From Candidatus Parvarchaeota archaeon (lineage in GTDB: Archaea; Nanobdellota; Nanobdellia; Parvarchaeales; Parvarchaeaceae): a stretch of DNA of 60,674 bases. The notes under the pieces were generated by a model. That model was not told the DNA's origin, ran no database searches, and worked only from the letters and a program-made list of their open reading frames with translations. The stretch spans positions 1 through 60,674 of the forward strand of contig JAGDXU010000003.1 of the NCBI GenBank assembly GCA_023269965.1, written 5' to 3'. The translations under genes and the position numbers were made by a program. Below are positions 28,674-44,704 of this stretch, in pieces; position 1 is the stretch's first letter; each line of letters opens with the position of its first letter.

Positions 28674-31600
28674 TTATTCGCATTCATGTGGTATTTGGGA
28701 AACTGCCATGCACTCCTGGTACGAAAACGCGTATCCTATAGTTTGGGTTGAACCAGCCTGTAAACTACCACTTGCCGGAGCAGGGGAGTAAACCTGTGTA
28801 TATTCATAACCTGTTGGACATGATGGATGACTACTAGGGAAATAGCAGCCATTCGAAGCAGTGAATTGATAAGTTCCCGGAGATGTTGTAAACAAGGTAT
28901 ATGAGCTAGATGAAGATTTAGTATTACCATCATAAGTTAACCACCAATCTGCACCCGATGGTAACCCACTTTCTATAAATGTAGTTTCGACTGACTGCTG
29001 TGATGATGGCTTTGGAGGGTACAAAGACAGATGCGGCCCTGTTCCAGTGTTGACCTGATATATCGGGACTGGCACAACATTATAAGACTTTGGAGAGACT
29101 AAAAGCGTATAGCTTATGTTCCAAATCGTAGGCAAGTTGTAGGCCATATAATAATTAGAATAAACTGCATATGTTTGATTATTATTACCTTGGTAGATGC
29201 AGTTCACTATGTAACCATATAGTGCGCTGTTTATGCTGTTGCAGTCTTCATCGGATGAGATGTTAAGCTGAGTACCCTGCCCATTATATCCTGCAGAGAA
29301 GATTCTGCTGTTGCCGTTAGGGCACTTTGCATTCAAATTAGCGGCAACTCCACCTGAACTGTATAAGGAAACGGATGGAGGGCTGTTCACACTGCTATTC
29401 TTCACGCTATAGAACTGGACTGAATGAACGCCTTCATTCAGCCCGCCTAGAAGTAAGTATATCCCATTTGAGTAAATCGATGGGAGAGTATTACCATCAC
29501 ATAATTTACCTTCCCCAAGCGAGAATATGCCATTGTTTCCTTGGGTTAAGGATCCGGGGCAGTTGCCCTGAGTCCCACCGCTGAATATATTCATCGCATA
29601 GTCTAATTCACTCCCGTTCACAAAAGCAGGAACGCCGGATATTGCAAAGTAAGGATACTGGAGCAGTAATGTACTCAGCAAATCATAAGGATACAACGGC
29701 GATTCAAACATTGCAACAGATTCTATGGCAGATTCTAGAGGCTTGTAAGGGTAAAGTTGAGTGAATTCATTTATTAGCTCATGCTGTGAAACGGAGAGGC
29801 TGGTCATGTAGAAATCCTTCGTTTTCGCGTTGTTATTCCCAGGTATGTACACATTCAATGGAGAAGTAGAATTAATCACACCTAAACCAACGCCTACATC
29901 TGAAGCAGGGGAGTATTGTAGCACAAAGGAGGCATCCAACGTAGAATTCTTGGAGTTGGGGTATGCAAAACAATTGTACTGTGGATTCGGAGCCTGATAT
30001 GCAGATGCATTGACAGAAGCTGGCAACGCAGCACATGACAAGCAGCTAGCACCATACTGTGGCGAGTTCGAGGTCAATGTCTCGAGACTAGACGATTCCT
30101 GCGGAATATTTGAAACACATGACGATGGTGAATAAGTCAAGCTTTGATTACTGGAATAATCTCTTGGTGTTTGCGTGACGTTTTCACAAGCCAAGATGCT
30201 TCCAGATCCAGAATTGCACGAATAGGTGTACTGAAATCCGCCTCCAGAAGTAGTTGATTTAGAGATAGTTGGGGCACTTGTGTTGTAAGTGAACCTGCAA
30301 GCCTCACATGCGCCTACATCCGGCAGAATATTTGGATTCCCAGTAGTCGGTATATTATTGTCTGAAAATGTAAATGGAGTCCATGACCATCCATAATTAT
30401 TCACATTAGTAGCGATATTATTCGTTTTATTTTCGCATAAGAAAGTGGACTGGTTGAAAACTGTCGGCTCACTTTGAGTGAATGATATCTGGGTAGTGCT
30501 TAAACTCATATACACAGGTGATACACCAGTAGGATAATCAGGAATATAGTCGACGCCCCATACGCTTCCATTCGCACCTGTGACGCTGGTTGGGCAATTT
30601 CCATTTGAATAACTAAAACTGCTATAAAGATTTGGATCTGTAAGCATAGAACATTCTGAGGTGAAAGTCAATGGATTCTCATTAAGAGTACCTGGTGTAA
30701 TAAACGCAGGAGAGCACGTTGTCCCGCTCGTTGCCCCATCAGAATAGCTGCATCCAACAGGCTCATAACTCCAGCCACTGCATGAGCCTAAAACCTGTGT
30801 GGTGTTTGAGGCGTTAACGTAGGTTACTGACTCAGTCACATTTGCATAGCCGCTACAAGAAAACGATGCATCAACCGCTGAAGGTGAGGAAGTAGGTATT
30901 CTGCTGCCGCTAGAGTAGCTGAAAGATATACTTCGAGTAGACGAGACGACAGCACTATTAGATGAGAAGTTACCTGCATAGTAATGAGATATCGTTCCGG
31001 CAGTAGGGGCGCAACTGTAAGTGGAGTCTATGAGACATCCGCCGCCGGCAAGATAATTTGAACCGGTTGTTGCTGCTGTTGGAATGCACTCCAGGCTCTT
31101 AAATGAACCAGGCTGCGGGACAAATGAAACCTGGGATAGACAAGGCGTAAATGCGGCAATTGTAGTGTTTATTGGACAACTACTTATCATAACGCCACCA
31201 TTTGGATTGAATAGTGCTTCAGAGCTTGGGGAGGCTATGGAATTATTCATTATATAATTCTCCGGATTAGAATTATCATATGGTTGTAGTACTCCATTCA
31301 TATAGAACTGTGGCTCTGATAAAGTCGTATAAGTATAACCACTGTAACTGTAACTCTGATGTGGGGGTAGAGCACACAAACCGTAATAGGTAGTAGTAAA
31401 CTTATTCCCAGACGTGGTTTTGAAAGTTATGTTATAATTTCCAGGCTCGAATTGAAATCCTAATCCGGTCGTATAATTTTCATTAGAAGAAGATGAAGGC
31501 GGAAAGTTACTTGAATACGTTGCTGGAGCGCCATTGTAAAGGCAGTAAAAACTACCCTCATCCGACGGACTCAAAGTGACTGGCTGTTCTGTCTCAGAAT

Positions 31601-42208: not shown

Positions 42209-44704
42209 TCACTTCGTGTAGCTACCTCCTAAGTCTGTAACTGAATTTGGAAAGACGCCGAAAACCAATGATTCATTATAAGGCGTCAAGGTTATCGTAT
42301 TCCCGCTCCTTGAAACTTCAAATGTTATGTTTGAATATTCAGTCTCGTAGAACCCCTGGTAAGGTGTTGGGGGATATAGCCATGAAGTGAATGCAGATAA
42401 TACATACTGCAATGGATTTAGGTTACTAGGCAGCTGTGCCCTCAAAGCTGAATGGTGGAAAAAACTTGCAGCTATTAAATCAACTAAAGGCGAATCAACA
42501 CCGCTTTGCACGACAAAATTCGGCTTTGGCCCCAATATGAAATTTCCGTCGCTTGGATAATCACTTATAGGGGTTGAAAAGCCTATTGAAAAATTATTGT
42601 TAAGGTAGAATTCGTTGCCGGACGCAAGAGCTGAATCACCTGCCGAATTAGGATTGTTGTTGTTTATGTTGCTGTTGTCCAGGTTTATATTGTATTTTCC
42701 TCCGCTCATGTTTGATATGTTTATGCAGCTGCTCATGGTTCCAAACTCTGTGTAACTGCCCTTAGTTTGATAGACCAGAGGTATTCCAGTATCCTCGACA
42801 ATCACATTGAACAAACAAAGGCTTGTGTCATAGCTCAGCCCGTTGCTGTTTGTGTTCCCGAGAAATCCTACAGCATATTTTGGAGGGAGAAGTATACTCA
42901 CTAAGGAGCCGCTTGGAGCGGAAATAACATTATTAACAAACGAAGAGAGAGGCTGTGGGAACAGGTTATCTCCCTCAGCACACAATGTATTTACCATCCC
43001 TTGATTCAATGAAAAGGAGATTGACCCATTTCCTGACGGCTGTACCATGCTCTGAAGGTGTACACCTTGCTTATATGTGTTCTGAGCTATGCTGCATATG
43101 TCCTGCATGTCCACTATAACTGGAACTGAAACTTCCTGCGGCTTTCCGTTTGCTTCACCATTCAAATACACTTCCCCTCCATATCCTACAAAGTTTGTAC
43201 CTGTATTTGAAACCAGATTTATTCTGGTGTAGAAATTAACAAGTGATGAGACAGCACCTATAATCGAACCTACACTATCTAATGCACTCGAGCCAGATGA
43301 ATATCCAGTCTTACTAAAAGCATATTGCAGATCGCCTAAGCACACAGCCGTCCTAGCTCCGACAAGAACAGCTGTACCCCCATAAAAGCCTATGTCTTGC
43401 AGCAATGGGTCCCCATTCCCTACCGGAATCCCGTTTAGATTAACGCTTGATATAAAGTTGTTTGAGCTAGCGTTGAGCGTAGAAGGAGCACTTACGCCCT
43501 CCACAGGAGTATAGTAAGGACTTGTGTTATTCTGATTCAAATTATAACTTGCCAGCTCATCAAGTATGTCCTTTCCAGTGCCTATAGCCTGACCGAAATC
43601 ATACAATAGATTATCTTTAGCTATACTGGATGGAAGACTATCCACAGCTTGAATGTTGCTCGCGGTCTGGACAAACTTTTGAAGTTCAAAATTCAATGCA
43701 TTACCAGTTGATTGTATCGGAGCTAATTCTTCGTATGAAGCAAGAACTGAGTAGGACTGCGCTGTTGTAATCGACTTAGGAGGTGATACTCCAAACCTTG
43801 CAAAAGCTGGATTAACAGGCGCGACCATTTTTGAAGCGGTATTCGCATCAGTCGAAAACCAGTAGTAAAAATAAGGAGAAGCTAAACCAGCCAAAAAAGA
43901 ACCTGTTAAGATCACTACATTGAAAGCAGCTGCTTTTGCCATGCCTTTAAGCCCATTGGCTAAAAATGAACCAACACTGTTCGCAACAGTTGTTCCAGAA
44001 TCTACACTATCTTCTAATAAACCTGCGGCGTAATCTGCATCTTGTGCCTTGTCAAGAGATTCAAAAAGATCTGCGGTTCTTGTGTTCAAGAGATCTTGGT
44101 ACTCCTGATCATTTATTACTGCCTTTCTTGCAAGGAGCGCTGCAGTCTTAGCACTTAAGGAATCAAAATTTTGATTTGTTTCTTTTAAATTACCTAATAT
44201 TCTTGTTACTGCTTCCTGCGTTTGCTCTTCTTCGGCCCCTGCAGATTTGAAAAGACCAGCAATCTCTTCTGTAGCGGCTTCCTTTGCGTCTGATGGTCCA
44301 AAGAAGAAATCGTAAACTTTACCAAAGGAAGCTTTGCTTGGTATTATTCCAACCATAATACAAAGATCGAAACTGAATACATTTTTCCCAACATCTAATG
44401 TGGGTCCAGTCGCGTATGAGATATTGTATATTTTAGAGCCGCCCGCACAGGTATAAGCATCTATCGCCGGCACCCACTGACAAAGTGAAGTGTTACCGCT
44501 TAGAGTCACTGACATAGAAGATGGCGCAGAATATATTGCATTCTGTGCTGCCCCTACATCATTGGCAAACATCTGCATAGAAGCCGCGCCATTTTGAAAG
44601 AAAAGGCCCTGTAAAGACGCAAAATTAAGACCAACCAAGAAGAAAGCAAGTGCGAGTATCAATATTCCTATAGCTATGACTACTTGTGTTCTCCTATTCA
44701 GCAT
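42209..44704 (-). CDS. Large (831 aa) membrane protein, first gene of the cluster
   Basis: The N-terminal helix is RRTQVVIAIGILILALAFFLVG. It is followed by an acidic helical segment (AKEAATEEIAGLFKSAGAEEEQTQEAV...DKAQDADYAAGLLED). A second hydrophobic segment (AAAFNVVILTGSFLAGLASPYFYYWF) precedes a ~550 aa N/S/G-rich domain. Confidence 0.8.
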   Translation of the reverse strand: MLNRRTQVVIAIGILILALAFFLVGLNFASLQGLFFQNGAASMQMFANDVGAAQNAIYSAPSSMSVTLSGNTSLCQWVPAIDAYTCAGGSKIYNISYATGPTLDVGKNVFSFDLCIMVGIIPSKASFGKVYDFFFGPSDAKEAATEEIAGLFKSAGAEEEQTQEAVTRILGNLKETNQNFDSLSAKTAALLARKAVINDQEYQDLLNTRTADLFESLDKAQDADYAAGLLEDSVDSGTTVANSVGSFLANGLKGMAKAAAFNVVILTGSFLAGLASPYFYYWFSTDANTASKMVAPVNPAFARFGVSPPKSITTAQSYSVLASYEELAPIQSTGNALNFELQKFVQTASNIQAVDSLPSSIAKDNLLYDFGQAIGTGKDILDELASYNLNQNNTSPYYTPVEGVSAPSTLNASSNNFISSVNLNGIPVGNGDPLLQDIGFYGGTAVLVGARTAVCLGDLQYAFSKTGYSSGSSALDSVGSIIGAVSSLVNFYTRINLVSNTGTNFVGYGGEVYLNGEANGKPQEVSVPVIVDMQDICSIAQNTYKQGVHLQSMVQPSGNGSISFSLNQGMVNTLCAEGDNLFPQPLSSFVNNVISAPSGSLVSILLPPKYAVGFLGNTNSNGLSYDTSLCLFNVIVEDTGIPLVYQTKGSYTEFGTMSSCINISNMSGGKYNINLDNSNINNNNPNSAGDSALASGNEFYLNNNFSIGFSTPISDYPSDGNFILGPKPNFVVQSGVDSPLVDLIAASFFHHSALRAQLPSNLNPLQYVLSAFTSWLYPPTPYQGFYETEYSNITFEVSRSGNTITLTPYNESLVFGVFPNSVTDLGGSYTK

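What the first reader, a model, noticed from the sequence alone, without database searches (positions are those of the whole stretch)
28674..44704. Sixteen-kilobase five-gene operon of pilin-signal-bearing and giant surface proteins with no assembly machinery nearby
**Gene organisation**
- Five minus-strand genes (831, 269, 196, 1269 and 2783 aa) are packed with overlaps or gaps of only 3-7 nt, apart from one 20 nt overlap at 41396-41415 that shrinks to a 4 nt gap with the Met at 41391.
- They sit behind a single TATA-like element, so they look co-transcribed and translationally coupled.

**Shared protein features**
- Every product starts with a hydrophobic N-terminal helix.
- The 196 aa protein has a textbook class III prepilin motif (KSKRG|QLTIIDLLVAPIVAIV).
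- The 1269 aa protein has MNNKG|QANIIAVIGMILAVIF.
- The exported portions share a striking composition: N/S/T/Y/P/G-rich, few charged residues, many N-x-S/T sequons, scattered Cys pairs.
- I recognise no enzymatic or standard adhesin domains.

**Interpretation**
- The layout of small minor-pilin-like subunits plus very large pilin-anchored proteins resembles a pilus-tip or fibre-tip adhesin complex.
- It could be a cell-cell contact apparatus, for example for an episymbiotic small-genome archaeon.
- No PilB/FlaI-type ATPase, PilC/FlaJ-type platform or PibD/FlaK peptidase lies in the window. I do not know a described system with this composition.
Basis: partly seen in the sequence, partly recalled or inferred. 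Interest (0 to 1): 0.88.

Follow-up and report, generated by a model that had tools for sequence, protein, structure and literature searches.

The report
Conserved pilin-like surface-protein operon in Parvarchaeota
A tiny acid-mine archaeon that must live attached to other cells spends 2-3% of its genome on a conserved, never-annotated five-gene operon: four proteins with pilus-subunit-type signal ends plus one giant secreted protein, making it a strong but unproven candidate for the cell's attachment apparatus.

Summary
Five tightly packed minus-strand genes (831/269/196/1269/2783 aa) lie at 28674-44704 in a contig of Candidatus Acidifodinimicrobium (Parvarchaeota, DPANN). None matches Pfam, NCBIfam, PHROGs or PDB sequences. 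The same gene order (A-B-C-D-E) recurs in more than 35 loci: ARMAN-4, ARMAN-5, Rehaiarchaeum, and deep neutrophilic "Nanoarchaeota"-type relatives. A profile of protein A finds only 35 representatives among 1.84 billion proteins. Families C and D keep an invariant [KR]-[GA]|Q leader plus hydrophobic helix. A has [KRN]-[ATS]|Q. B is leaderless here but has KKG|Q or MRG|Q in deep relatives. E has only a Sec-type signal. So four ancestral class III (prepilin-like) proteins plus one giant exported protein is the conserved plan. The N/S/T/Y-rich, low-charge composition reflects acidophily and is not a family trait. No type IV pilus ATPase, platform or peptidase lies within about 10 kb in any annotated locus, though the genus encodes FlaK, a VirB11-type ATPase, TadC and AglB elsewhere (literature). 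Both structure predictions failed. Best reading, about 55%: a type-IV-filament-related minor-pilin and adhesin complex used for host contact. This is a new variant of a known kind.

The parts
42209..44704 (-). Gene A (831 aa). It has an N-terminal MLNRRT|Q motif plus a hydrophobic helix. A conserved Cys-containing N-terminal module of about 120 aa follows, then a D/E-rich helical region (about residues 120-250) and a large C-terminal extracellular part.
   Evidence: ORF. There are 26 word-index homologs and 35 representatives among 1.84e9 proteins. The N-terminal module is conserved into deep relatives. Motif [KRN][ATS]|Q across loci. Charge island. The extra hydrophobic segments are not conserved.
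41396..42205 (-). Gene B (269 aa). It is the best-conserved member. In this lineage it has a leaderless N-terminus, MAVME5 plus a hydrophobic helix. Deep orthologs start MRG|Q, KKG|Q, MKA|Q or KKS|Q.
   Evidence: There is a sub-threshold hit to the pseudopilin model HpsB at E = 0.025.
40825..41415 (-). Gene C (196 aa). This small prepilin-like protein has the leader ...KSKRG|QLTIIDLL, four Cys invariant among its closest relatives, and an invariant [KR][GA]|Q-x-T-x-x-[DE] motif.
   Evidence: The AF2 model was unusable, with pLDDT 50.
37019..40828 (-). Gene D (1269 aa). This modular prepilin-like giant has the leader MNNKG|QANII. Its N-terminal module of about 180 aa is conserved and its large C-terminal part is variable.
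   Evidence: There are no PDB or Pfam hits.
28674..37025 (-). Gene E (2783 aa). This giant non-pilin exported protein has a variable basic N-region plus one TM or Sec-type signal. It has 79 sequons, 58 Cys and no internal repeats. Conserved cores lie at about residues 570-1100 and 2470-2655.
   Evidence: A distant ortholog carries Laminin_G_3.
37022..37369 (-). C-terminal domain of D (residues 1154-1269). It is 72% identical to the C-terminus of E and is absent from the Parvarchaeum orthologs of D.
28680..29030 (-). C-terminal domain of E (residues 2666-2782). It contains one copy of a module of about 75 aa, F-x-E-S-G-L-P-x-G-x-x-W. That module is tandemly repeated in a Thermoplasmata protein.
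   Evidence: It is not in Pfam.
44705..44778 (-). The 74 nt upstream intergenic region, with AT-rich TATA-like elements (AAAAGATTAATATT and TTATAA). It is the putative operon promoter.
   Evidence: Sequence read. Function was not tested.

Best explanation
**What it is.** The operon encodes a five-part cell-surface complex related to type IV filaments.

**Processing and assembly (inferred).**
- Proteins A, C and D, and ancestrally B, are made with class III (prepilin-type) signals.
- The genome's single FlaK/PibD-type peptidase cleaves them after [KR]-[G/A/S/T].
- Their N-terminal hydrophobic helices then bundle into a short fibre or a fibre-tip ("minor pilin") complex.
- Assembly uses the VirB11/FlaI-type ATPase and TadC platform encoded elsewhere in the genome.
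- C is the small core subunit. A and D are modular pilins whose conserved N-terminal modules sit in the fibre, while their large variable C-terminal parts project outward.
- E is exported by Sec and docks on the complex, much as PilY1 docks on bacterial minor pilins.
- In Acidifodinimicrobium, D and E both end in the same beta-rich domain, which is also found in Thermoplasmata surface proteins.

**Function (inferred).** The exposed parts are glycosylated, disulfide-stabilised and acid-stable. They bind the surface of the host cell, presumably a Thermoplasmatales archaeon, and so hold the symbiont on its host.

**Shown here:** gene structure, conservation, the signal motifs and their distribution.
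**Inferred:** cleavage, assembly by the T4P core, filament or tip location, and host binding.
For: **Class III-type N-termini**
- They are conserved far beyond the surrounding sequence. C has an invariant [KR][GA]|Q.T..[DE] and D an invariant [KR][GA]|Q across about 35 loci and down to 23-29% overall identity.
- A has [KRN][ATS]|Q. In deep relatives it has RKA| or RG|.
- B has KKG|Q, MRG|Q, MKA|Q or KKS|Q in deep relatives.
- A compact variant (L044) has six such proteins in a row plus a Sec-type protein.
- In the window, the motif occurs only in this operon.

**Modular-pilin pattern**
- In A and D only the N-terminal 120-180 aa are conserved at depth.
- Their C-terminal parts vary in size, about 580-1286 aa overall for A and 720-1570 aa for D.

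**Operon organisation**
- The genes overlap or nearly abut, and the order is fixed.
- Oligo-T runs are depleted inside the operon.

**Machinery in the genus (literature)**
- FlaK peptidase (K07991) and AglB are present in all five MAGs. VirB11 and TadC are reported, while no pilin or archaellin was among the pili-related genes that study found.

**Adhesin character**
- A distant E ortholog carries a Laminin_G_3 lectin-type domain at E = 1.2e-12.
- The proteins are Cys-rich and sequon-rich.

**Precedent and context**
- Archaeal T4P loci commonly combine several minor pilins with large adhesin-like proteins.
- Cryo-ET shows Velcro-like densities and pili-like fibres at ARMAN-Thermoplasmatales contacts, and no S-layer on ARMAN.
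- The operon takes 2-3% of a genome of about 0.6 Mb.
Against: - No known pilin, pseudopilin or adhesin model matches any of the five in Pfam (including its class III signal and pilin N-terminal models), NCBIfam or PDB profile searches.
- The four families are not detectably homologous to each other beyond the leader and helix.
- Both AlphaFold models were too poor to test the pilin fold, with pLDDT 50 and 38.
- The operon is never next to a T4P ATPase, platform or peptidase in any of eight annotated contexts.
- Position -1 of A is T in this genome, which is not a documented prepilin-peptidase site (my own knowledge).
- B has no leader here.
- An N-terminal basic stretch plus a TM helix is also what a plain signal anchor looks like.
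- No expression or proteomic evidence was found.
Confidence: 0.55

Rival explanations
1. The five proteins form a membrane-anchored envelope or wall complex that is not a filament. They are N-terminally anchored structural components of the unusual ARMAN/Parvarchaeota cell wall, which is about 30 nm thick. The [KR][GA]Q motif would be a lineage-specific signal-anchor or signal-peptidase feature unrelated to type IV filament assembly.
For: - There is no genomic linkage to T4P core genes anywhere.
- No pilin model matches.
- The proteins are very large, glycosylatable, Cys-rich and non-repetitive, as expected of wall proteins.
- The operon is universal and syntenic with housekeeping genes in Parvarchaeales, as expected for a core envelope component.
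- Large S-layer-like proteins are known companions of archaeal T4P loci.
Against: - Cryo-ET reports no S-layer on ARMAN cells.
- There are no S-layer Pfam domains and no C-terminal anchors.
- Invariance of G/A at -1 and Q at +1 over deep divergence is hard to explain for a mere anchor.
- A FlaK-type peptidase is retained in these minimal genomes, and no substrate was reported for it.
Confidence: 0.25
2. It is a bindosome-like uptake structure. Class III-signal proteins would be assembled at the surface to capture nutrients or macromolecules from the host or the environment, as in the Sulfolobus bindosome, and would not serve adhesion.
For: - Class III signals occur on large non-pilin-like proteins.
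- The organism depends on external metabolites.
- A lectin-type domain occurs in one ortholog.
- The compact L044 variant lies next to a MacB-type ABC transporter.
Against: - None of the five proteins has a solute-binding-protein domain, in the window or in distant orthologs.
- The ABC neighbour is seen in only one lineage.
- The giant sizes, 1269 and 2783 aa, are atypical for binding proteins.
Confidence: 0.08
3. It is a mobile-element or viral cargo, such as tail-fibre-like or receptor-binding proteins, or it is a chance run of ORFs.
For: - The proteins are large and unannotated.
- In L037 the operon sits among small unannotated ORFs.
Against: - The GC content equals that of the surrounding genome.
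- The operon is flanked by the same housekeeping genes, Lhr helicase and CCA-adding enzyme, in Acidifodinimicrobium, Parvarchaeum and Rehaiarchaeum.
- There are no PHROG hits.
- The reading frames are intact and orthologous in more than 35 loci.
Confidence: 0.02

Closest known systems
Archaeal type IV filament (T4P/TFF) accessory sets: minor pilins plus large adhesin-like or S-layer-like proteins (Makarova, Koonin & Albers 2016, PMC4858521; TFF preprint 10.64898/2026.04.22.720090)
   Same: - Several proteins with class III signals are encoded together with very large secreted Cys-rich proteins.
- Pilin-like members without a canonical SPIII motif also occur.
- The sequences evolve extremely fast.
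   Different: - In this operon, the genes are never adjacent to the ATPase or platform.
- All five families lack any arCOG-, Pfam- or NCBIfam-type match found here.
- Two of the signal-bearing proteins are themselves giants, at 831 and 1269 aa.
- The lineage (Parvarchaeales and relatives, DPANN) was not covered in those surveys.
Bacterial T4aP minor-pilin/PilY1 operon (fimU-pilVWXY1E) and the T2SS GspH-I-J-K tip complex
   Same: - Four pilin-like proteins plus one large Sec-exported non-pilin protein sit in one operon.
- That operon is located away from the ATPase, platform and peptidase genes.
- One member has an atypical N-terminus.
- The proposed role is a fibre-tip priming and adhesion complex.
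   Different: - No sequence homology was detected. The only trace is B against the pseudopilin HpsB at E = 0.025.
- There is no PilY1 or DUF2341-type domain.
- The subunits are far larger.
- This is an analogy recalled from established knowledge of these systems, and nothing here demonstrates it.
Modular type IV pilins (e.g. Streptococcus sanguinis PilB and PilC; PMC8179133, PMC9934059)
   Same: A class III signal and pilin module at the N-terminus are fused to a functional extracellular module. The N-terminal module is conserved and the C-terminal part is variable.
   Different: - The modules in this operon are 5-10 times larger and of unknown fold.
- No vWA or lectin domain is detectable in the window proteins.
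DPANN host-contact structures seen by cryo-ET (Nanobdellota attachment organelle, PMC11420986; ARMAN-Thermoplasmatales contacts, PMC4110969)
   Same: - The same kind of organism and the same biological need are involved.
- Filaments and surface densities are seen at contacts.
- The protein components are explicitly unknown.
   Different: Nothing links these gene products to those structures. The attachment organelle was described in another order, Nanobdellales.

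Membership tests
Type IV pilin / archaeal class III signal-peptide proteins | An N-terminal short basic leader ends in [KR]-[G/A], followed by about 20 hydrophobic residues. | tested here: met
   - The feature is met for C (KSKRG|QLTII...) and D (MNNKG|QANII...), and it is invariant across about 35 loci.
- A has RRT|Q here and [KR]A|Q in most relatives.
- B is leaderless here but has KKG|Q or MRG|Q in deep relatives.
- E does not have it.
Type IV pilin / archaeal class III signal-peptide proteins | The protein matches curated pilin or class III signal HMMs (Pfam, NCBIfam). 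| tested here: not met
   Pfam and NCBIfam searches at E <= 1 gave no pilin family for any protein. The only hit was B against HpsB pseudopilin at E = 0.025, 14.6 bits against a cut-off of 150.
Type IV pilin / archaeal class III signal-peptide proteins | Pilin fold: a long N-terminal alpha-helix packed on a beta-sheet. | tested here: inconclusive
   - The AF2 models of C (pLDDT 50) and A (pLDDT 38) are unusable.
- The A model does show helix 2-59 followed by four strands, but at pLDDT 25-35.
- PDB profile searches found nothing.
Type IV pilin / archaeal class III signal-peptide proteins | The leader is cleaved by an A24 prepilin peptidase (FlaK/PibD/EppA). | not testable with these tools
   The enzyme gene K07991 is present in all five Acidifodinimicrobiaceae MAGs according to the supplement of PMC7779479. 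Cleavage itself is untested.
Type IV filament system (locus level) | The genes are genomically associated with a PilB/FlaI-type ATPase and a PilC/TadC platform. | tested here: not met
   - None was found among the sizeable window ORFs scanned.
- None lies within about 10 kb in L001, L003, L005, L035, L036, L037, L041 or L044.
- VirB11 and TadC are reported elsewhere in the genus.
Bacterial minor-pilin/PilY1 tip complex | Homology to FimU/PilV/W/X or GspH-K, and to the PilY1 C-terminal propeller or DUF2341. | tested here: not met
   There are no Pfam, NCBIfam or PDB hits. Only the architecture is analogous: four pilin-like proteins plus one large Sec-exported protein.
Archaeal S-layer proteins | S-layer domains or a lattice-forming protein with a membrane anchor, on an organism that has an S-layer. 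| tested here: not met
   - There are no S-layer Pfam domains.
- There is no C-terminal TM segment.
- Cryo-ET literature reports no S-layer on ARMAN. Lattice formation itself is not testable here.
Sulfolobus-type bindosome substrates | A class III signal is fused to a solute-binding-protein domain. | tested here: not met
   The signal is present, but no SBP domain is found in any of the five or in their distant orthologs.

The most novel reading that the evidence does not exclude
The A-E operon is not an accessory of an ordinary pilus. It would be the core of a lineage-specific, self-contained host-contact apparatus of Parvarchaeales and related DPANN archaea. Its pilin-like helices would build a short envelope-spanning stalk. 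The stalk would present two giant adhesins that recognise the Thermoplasmatales surface and could nucleate the synapse-like or Velcro-like junctions seen by cryo-ET. In Acidifodinimicrobium, the C-terminal domain shared with Thermoplasmata proteins would be a host-derived module used for molecular mimicry or homophilic docking.
Probability: 0.15. Interest if true: 0.85.

Novelty: new variant of a known kind. Interest (0 to 1): 0.62.

Why it matters
- **An open question.** How DPANN archaea recognise and hold on to their hosts is unresolved. For the cryo-ET-defined attachment structures, "the protein(s) ... are unknown" (PMC11420986).
- **A gap in Parvarchaeota.** Published genome analyses of Acidifodinimicrobium found only a VirB11-type ATPase and TadC, and called cell-cell interaction proteins "limited" (PMC7779479).
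- **What this operon supplies.** It provides concrete candidates: five co-inherited, unannotated surface proteins that take 2-3% of a genome of about 0.6 Mb. They are conserved from ARMAN-4/-5 to neutrophilic relatives. Four carry the signal type that the retained FlaK peptidase would process, and no other substrate for that peptidase has been reported in these genomes.
- **If confirmed.** It would give the first named components of a Parvarchaeota host-contact structure. It would also be an archaeal counterpart of the bacterial arrangement of four minor pilins plus a large adhesin.
- **If wrong.** It would still define five new envelope protein families of a poorly known phylum.

Tried and rejected
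- **Structure prediction.** AlphaFold2 on C (7-sequence alignment) gave pLDDT 50, and on A (17 sequences) gave pLDDT 38. Both were too poor, so I did not run Foldseek, because low-confidence models give meaningless matches.
- **Sequence and profile searches.** Pfam, NCBIfam, PHROGs and PDB searches on the proteins and on family profiles gave nothing significant.
- **Comparison among families.** hhalign among the four N-terminal modules found only the leader and helix, with probability at or below 29%.
- **Multi-pass topology for A.** A 30% charged island flanked by hydrophobic segments suggested this. I downgraded it because the extra hydrophobic segments are absent in deep relatives and the island is D/E-rich.
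- **A sixth gene.** The upstream 276 aa ORF is not conserved. Parvarchaeum has an unrelated protein of about 235 aa at that position.
- **Linkage to T4P core genes.** I looked in deep relatives through the metagenome scan and Pfam annotation of neighbours and found none.
- **Transfer of the Laminin_G domain.** The domain in the L037 giant is a lineage-specific insertion next to the conserved core, not part of it, so it cannot be transferred to the window protein.
- **Viral or mobile origin.** I rejected this on synteny, GC content and PHROGs.
- **Literature.** I found no prior description of the operon. One search failed on syntax.

Full report

Yes. The ORF listing returns exactly the five minus-strand ORFs:
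- 42209-44704, 831 aa, "A"
- 41396-42205, 269 aa, "B"
- 40825-41415, 196 aa, "C"
- 37019-40828, 1269 aa, "D"
- 28674-37025, 2783 aa, GTG start, "E"

The junctions are a 3 nt gap, a 20 nt overlap, a 4 nt overlap (ATGA) and a 7 nt overlap.

Each product begins with a strongly hydrophobic segment. Charged residues make up 8-12%, against 24-31% in cytosolic proteins of the same window. D has 33 sequons and 24 Cys, and E has 79 sequons and 58 Cys.

None of the five matches Pfam, NCBIfam or PHROGs. The two giants have no PDB sequence relatives.

The rest of the window is mostly housekeeping: SecY, a ribosomal protein block, EF-1alpha, MetRS, Lhr helicase, CCA-adding enzyme, LonB, proteasome, SRP RNA and four tRNAs. 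It contains no PilB/FlaI, PilC/FlaJ or A24 peptidase among the ORFs scanned.

**2. Source organism**

Exact-sequence look-up places the window in Candidatus Acidifodinimicrobium, where all five proteins are "hypothetical protein". NCBI taxonomy puts the genus in Candidatus Parvarchaeota, kingdom Nanobdellati, that is DPANN.

The genus has estimated genomes of 0.53-0.76 Mb with about 515 genes (PMC7779479). This 16 kb operon is therefore 2-3% of the genome.

**3. Conservation**

Protein A has only 26 word-index homologs, all from Acidifodinimicrobium or "Parvarchaeota". A profile of the family finds just 35 representatives among 1.84 billion proteins.

The gene order A-B-C-D-E recurs in every related locus that is long enough:

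| Lineage | Loci | Sizes A/B/C/D/E (aa) |
|---|---|---|
| Parvarchaeum, incl. ARMAN-4 and ARMAN-5 scaffolds | L001-L004, L007-L034 | 806/268/193/1141/~3000 |
| Ca. Rehaiarchaeum | L035 | 810/262/182/1163/2502 |
| Neutrophilic "Nanoarchaeota"-type contigs | L005, L036, L037, L041 | about 580-744 / 260-302 / 128-213 / 722-880 / 2087-2551 |

- All five window proteins are orthologous to their positional counterparts. Identity is 35-50% to Parvarchaeum and 23-30% over the conserved parts to L005.
- The Lhr and CCA-enzyme neighbours are shared among Acidifodinimicrobium, Parvarchaeum and Rehaiarchaeum. This rules out a mobile element.
- The upstream 276 aa ORF is not conserved.

**4. The N-termini**

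This is the most informative result.

| Family | N-terminal pattern |
|---|---|
| C | A basic leader of 3-14 residues ends in an invariant [KR]-[GA], followed by Q-x-T-x-x-D. Deep relatives have MKG\|AVTIFE, with the acidic residue at +6. |
| D | Invariant [KR]-[GA]\|Q-[AT]-N. |
| A | [KRN]-[ATS]\|Q-[IV]-V. It is RRT\|Q in the window, RKA\|Q in most relatives, and RKA\| or RG\| in deep relatives. |
| B | No leader in the window, Parvarchaeum, Rehaiarchaeum or L041 (M-A-x-x-E5...). It begins MRG\|QMEI, KDKKG\|QATPL, MKA\|QLEP or KKS\|Q in L036, L037, L005 and L044. |
| E | Only a variable basic region plus one hydrophobic stretch. In some relatives this ends in a lipobox-like xxGC or xAAC. It is Sec-type. 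|

- A divergent compact variant (L044) has six consecutive [KR][GS]| proteins followed by one Sec-type protein.
- The conserved plan is therefore four class III-signal proteins plus one giant Sec-exported protein.
- In the whole window, a FlaFind-like rule picks out only A, C and D, plus two alternative-start artefacts inside transporters.

**5. What the composition means**

Orthologs from non-acidic habitats have 17-28% charged residues. The N/S/T/Y-rich, charge-poor make-up therefore reflects extracellular exposure at low pH and is not a signature of the family.

Protein A has a 30% charged, D/E-rich helical island at residues 120-250. At first this suggested a cytoplasmic loop. The flanking hydrophobic segments are absent in deep relatives, so an N-anchored protein with an acidic stalk is the simpler reading.

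**6. Domains**

- D and E share a C-terminal domain of about 117 aa at 72% identity. The Parvarchaeum D orthologs lack it.
- That domain contains one copy of a module of about 75 aa, F-x-E-S-G-L-P-x-G-x-x-W. The module is tandemly repeated in a Thermoplasmata protein, and Thermoplasmata is the presumed host lineage. The module is not in Pfam.
- The giants have no internal repeats.
- E has two cores conserved at depth, at residues ~570-1100 and ~2470-2655.
- One distant E carries a Laminin_G_3 lectin-type domain at E = 1.2e-12. It is a lineage-specific insertion.

**7. Link to type IV filament machinery**

*For the link*
- The supplementary KO table of PMC7779479 lists FlaK (K07991) and AglB (K07151) in all five Acidifodinimicrobiaceae MAGs, and FlaI in one MAG.
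- The text of that paper reports VirB11 and TadC as the only pilus genes.
- No pilin or archaellin was reported there, so the peptidase has no identified substrates. The operon proteins are obvious candidates.

*Against the link*
- The operon is never within about 10 kb of an ATPase, platform or peptidase in any of eight annotated contexts.
- No pilin HMM matches.
- Profile-profile comparisons among the families show only the leader and helix.
- PDB profile searches are empty.
- Both AlphaFold models failed, so the pilin fold is untested.

**8. Mechanism proposed (confidence about 0.55)**

1. A, C and D, and ancestrally B, are processed by FlaK.
2. They assemble through their N-terminal helices into a short fibre or fibre-tip complex, using the ATPase and TadC encoded elsewhere.
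3. C is the small core subunit. A and D are modular pilins.
4. E is Sec-exported and docks on the complex.
5. The exposed, glycosylated, disulfide-rich surfaces bind the host.

The arrangement parallels the bacterial fimU-pilVWXY1 and GspHIJK logic of four minor pilins plus a large non-pilin adhesin, encoded away from the core genes. That parallel is an analogy from established knowledge and is not demonstrated homology.

The context is consistent with this model. Archaeal T4P loci often hold about five minor pilins plus large adhesin-like proteins (PMC4858521; preprint). Cryo-ET shows pili-like fibres and Velcro-like densities at ARMAN-Thermoplasmatales contacts, and no S-layer on ARMAN (PMC4110969).

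**9. Rivals**

| Rival | Confidence | Main points |
|---|---|---|
| Non-filament wall or envelope complex | 0.25 | Favoured by the lack of linkage and of pilin-model hits. Disfavoured by the deep invariance of the -1/+1 positions and the retained peptidase. |
| Bindosome-like uptake structure | 0.08 | No binding-protein domains. |
| Mobile or viral cargo, or chance ORFs | 0.02 | Refuted by synteny. |

**10. Novelty and score**

- The kind is known: class III-signal proteins with large adhesins.
- These five families, their fixed detached operon, the giant modular pilin-like members and their restriction to Parvarchaeales-related DPANN are not described in the literature I could search.
- I rate it a new variant of a known kind, with interest 0.62.
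- It yields concrete candidates for the unknown DPANN host-contact proteins, but everything beyond sequence pattern and conservation is inference.

Noticed in passing
window 57900-60674: There is a sharp drop in GC, to 24-30% against about 42% elsewhere. The stretch covers a weak GT2-like glycosyltransferase (57894-58925), a methyltransferase (59047-59781) and a weak HAD-like ORF (59813-60400). It is possibly a horizontally acquired glycan-modification islet, which is relevant to the heavy sequon content of the operon proteins.
   Followed up: partly
window 28680-29030 and 37022-37369; P0097: The C-terminal domain shared by D and E is a single copy of an F-x-E-S-G-L-P-x-G-x-x-W module. That module is tandemly repeated at least four times in a partial Thermoplasmata protein and is absent from Pfam. 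Parvarchaeum D orthologs lack it, so it was added in the Acidifodinimicrobium lineage, possibly from the host lineage.
   Followed up: partly
L044 7130-15618 (also L045-L047): This is a compact, divergent version of the operon. It has six consecutive class III-like proteins (289/300/357/364/171/431 aa; KKG|, NKG|, RKS|Q, KKS|Q, KKG|Q, KKS|Q) followed by a 926 aa Sec-type protein. It is flanked by a MacB-type ABC transporter, FKBP and FtsZ.
   Followed up: partly
L037 8638-14901: The giant E ortholog (2087 aa) carries a Laminin_G_3 (concanavalin-like lectin) domain at residues 1835-1963. The genes upstream of the operon in this contig are all small ORFs without Pfam hits.
   Followed up: partly
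window 917-1741: A Ku70/Ku80 beta-barrel homolog (E = 2.2e-16) is present in this minimal DPANN genome. To my knowledge, Ku is uncommon in archaea.
   Followed up: no
window 28050-28135: The tRNA-Met (CAT) is 86 nt long, which is longer than a standard tRNA and may indicate an intron. It abuts the start codon of the adenosine-specific kinase gene (28135-28629).
   Followed up: no
window 44779-45609: This 276 aa highly charged ORF has no Pfam or NCBIfam hit and lies between tRNA-Asn and the operon. It is conserved only within Acidifodinimicrobium. Parvarchaeum has an unrelated ORF of about 235 aa at the same position.
   Followed up: partly
L029 11380-16092; L030 6134-9994: There is marked size plasticity within Parvarchaeum-type genomes. 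One D ortholog has 1570 aa (usual size about 1141), and one A ortholog has 1286 aa by a longest-ORF call (usual size about 808). The variable outer parts appear to be under diversifying pressure.
   Followed up: no
window 28151-28642 (+): A 163 aa ORF lies antisense to the adenosine kinase gene and has no family hit. It is almost certainly a spurious shadow ORF.
   Followed up: yes
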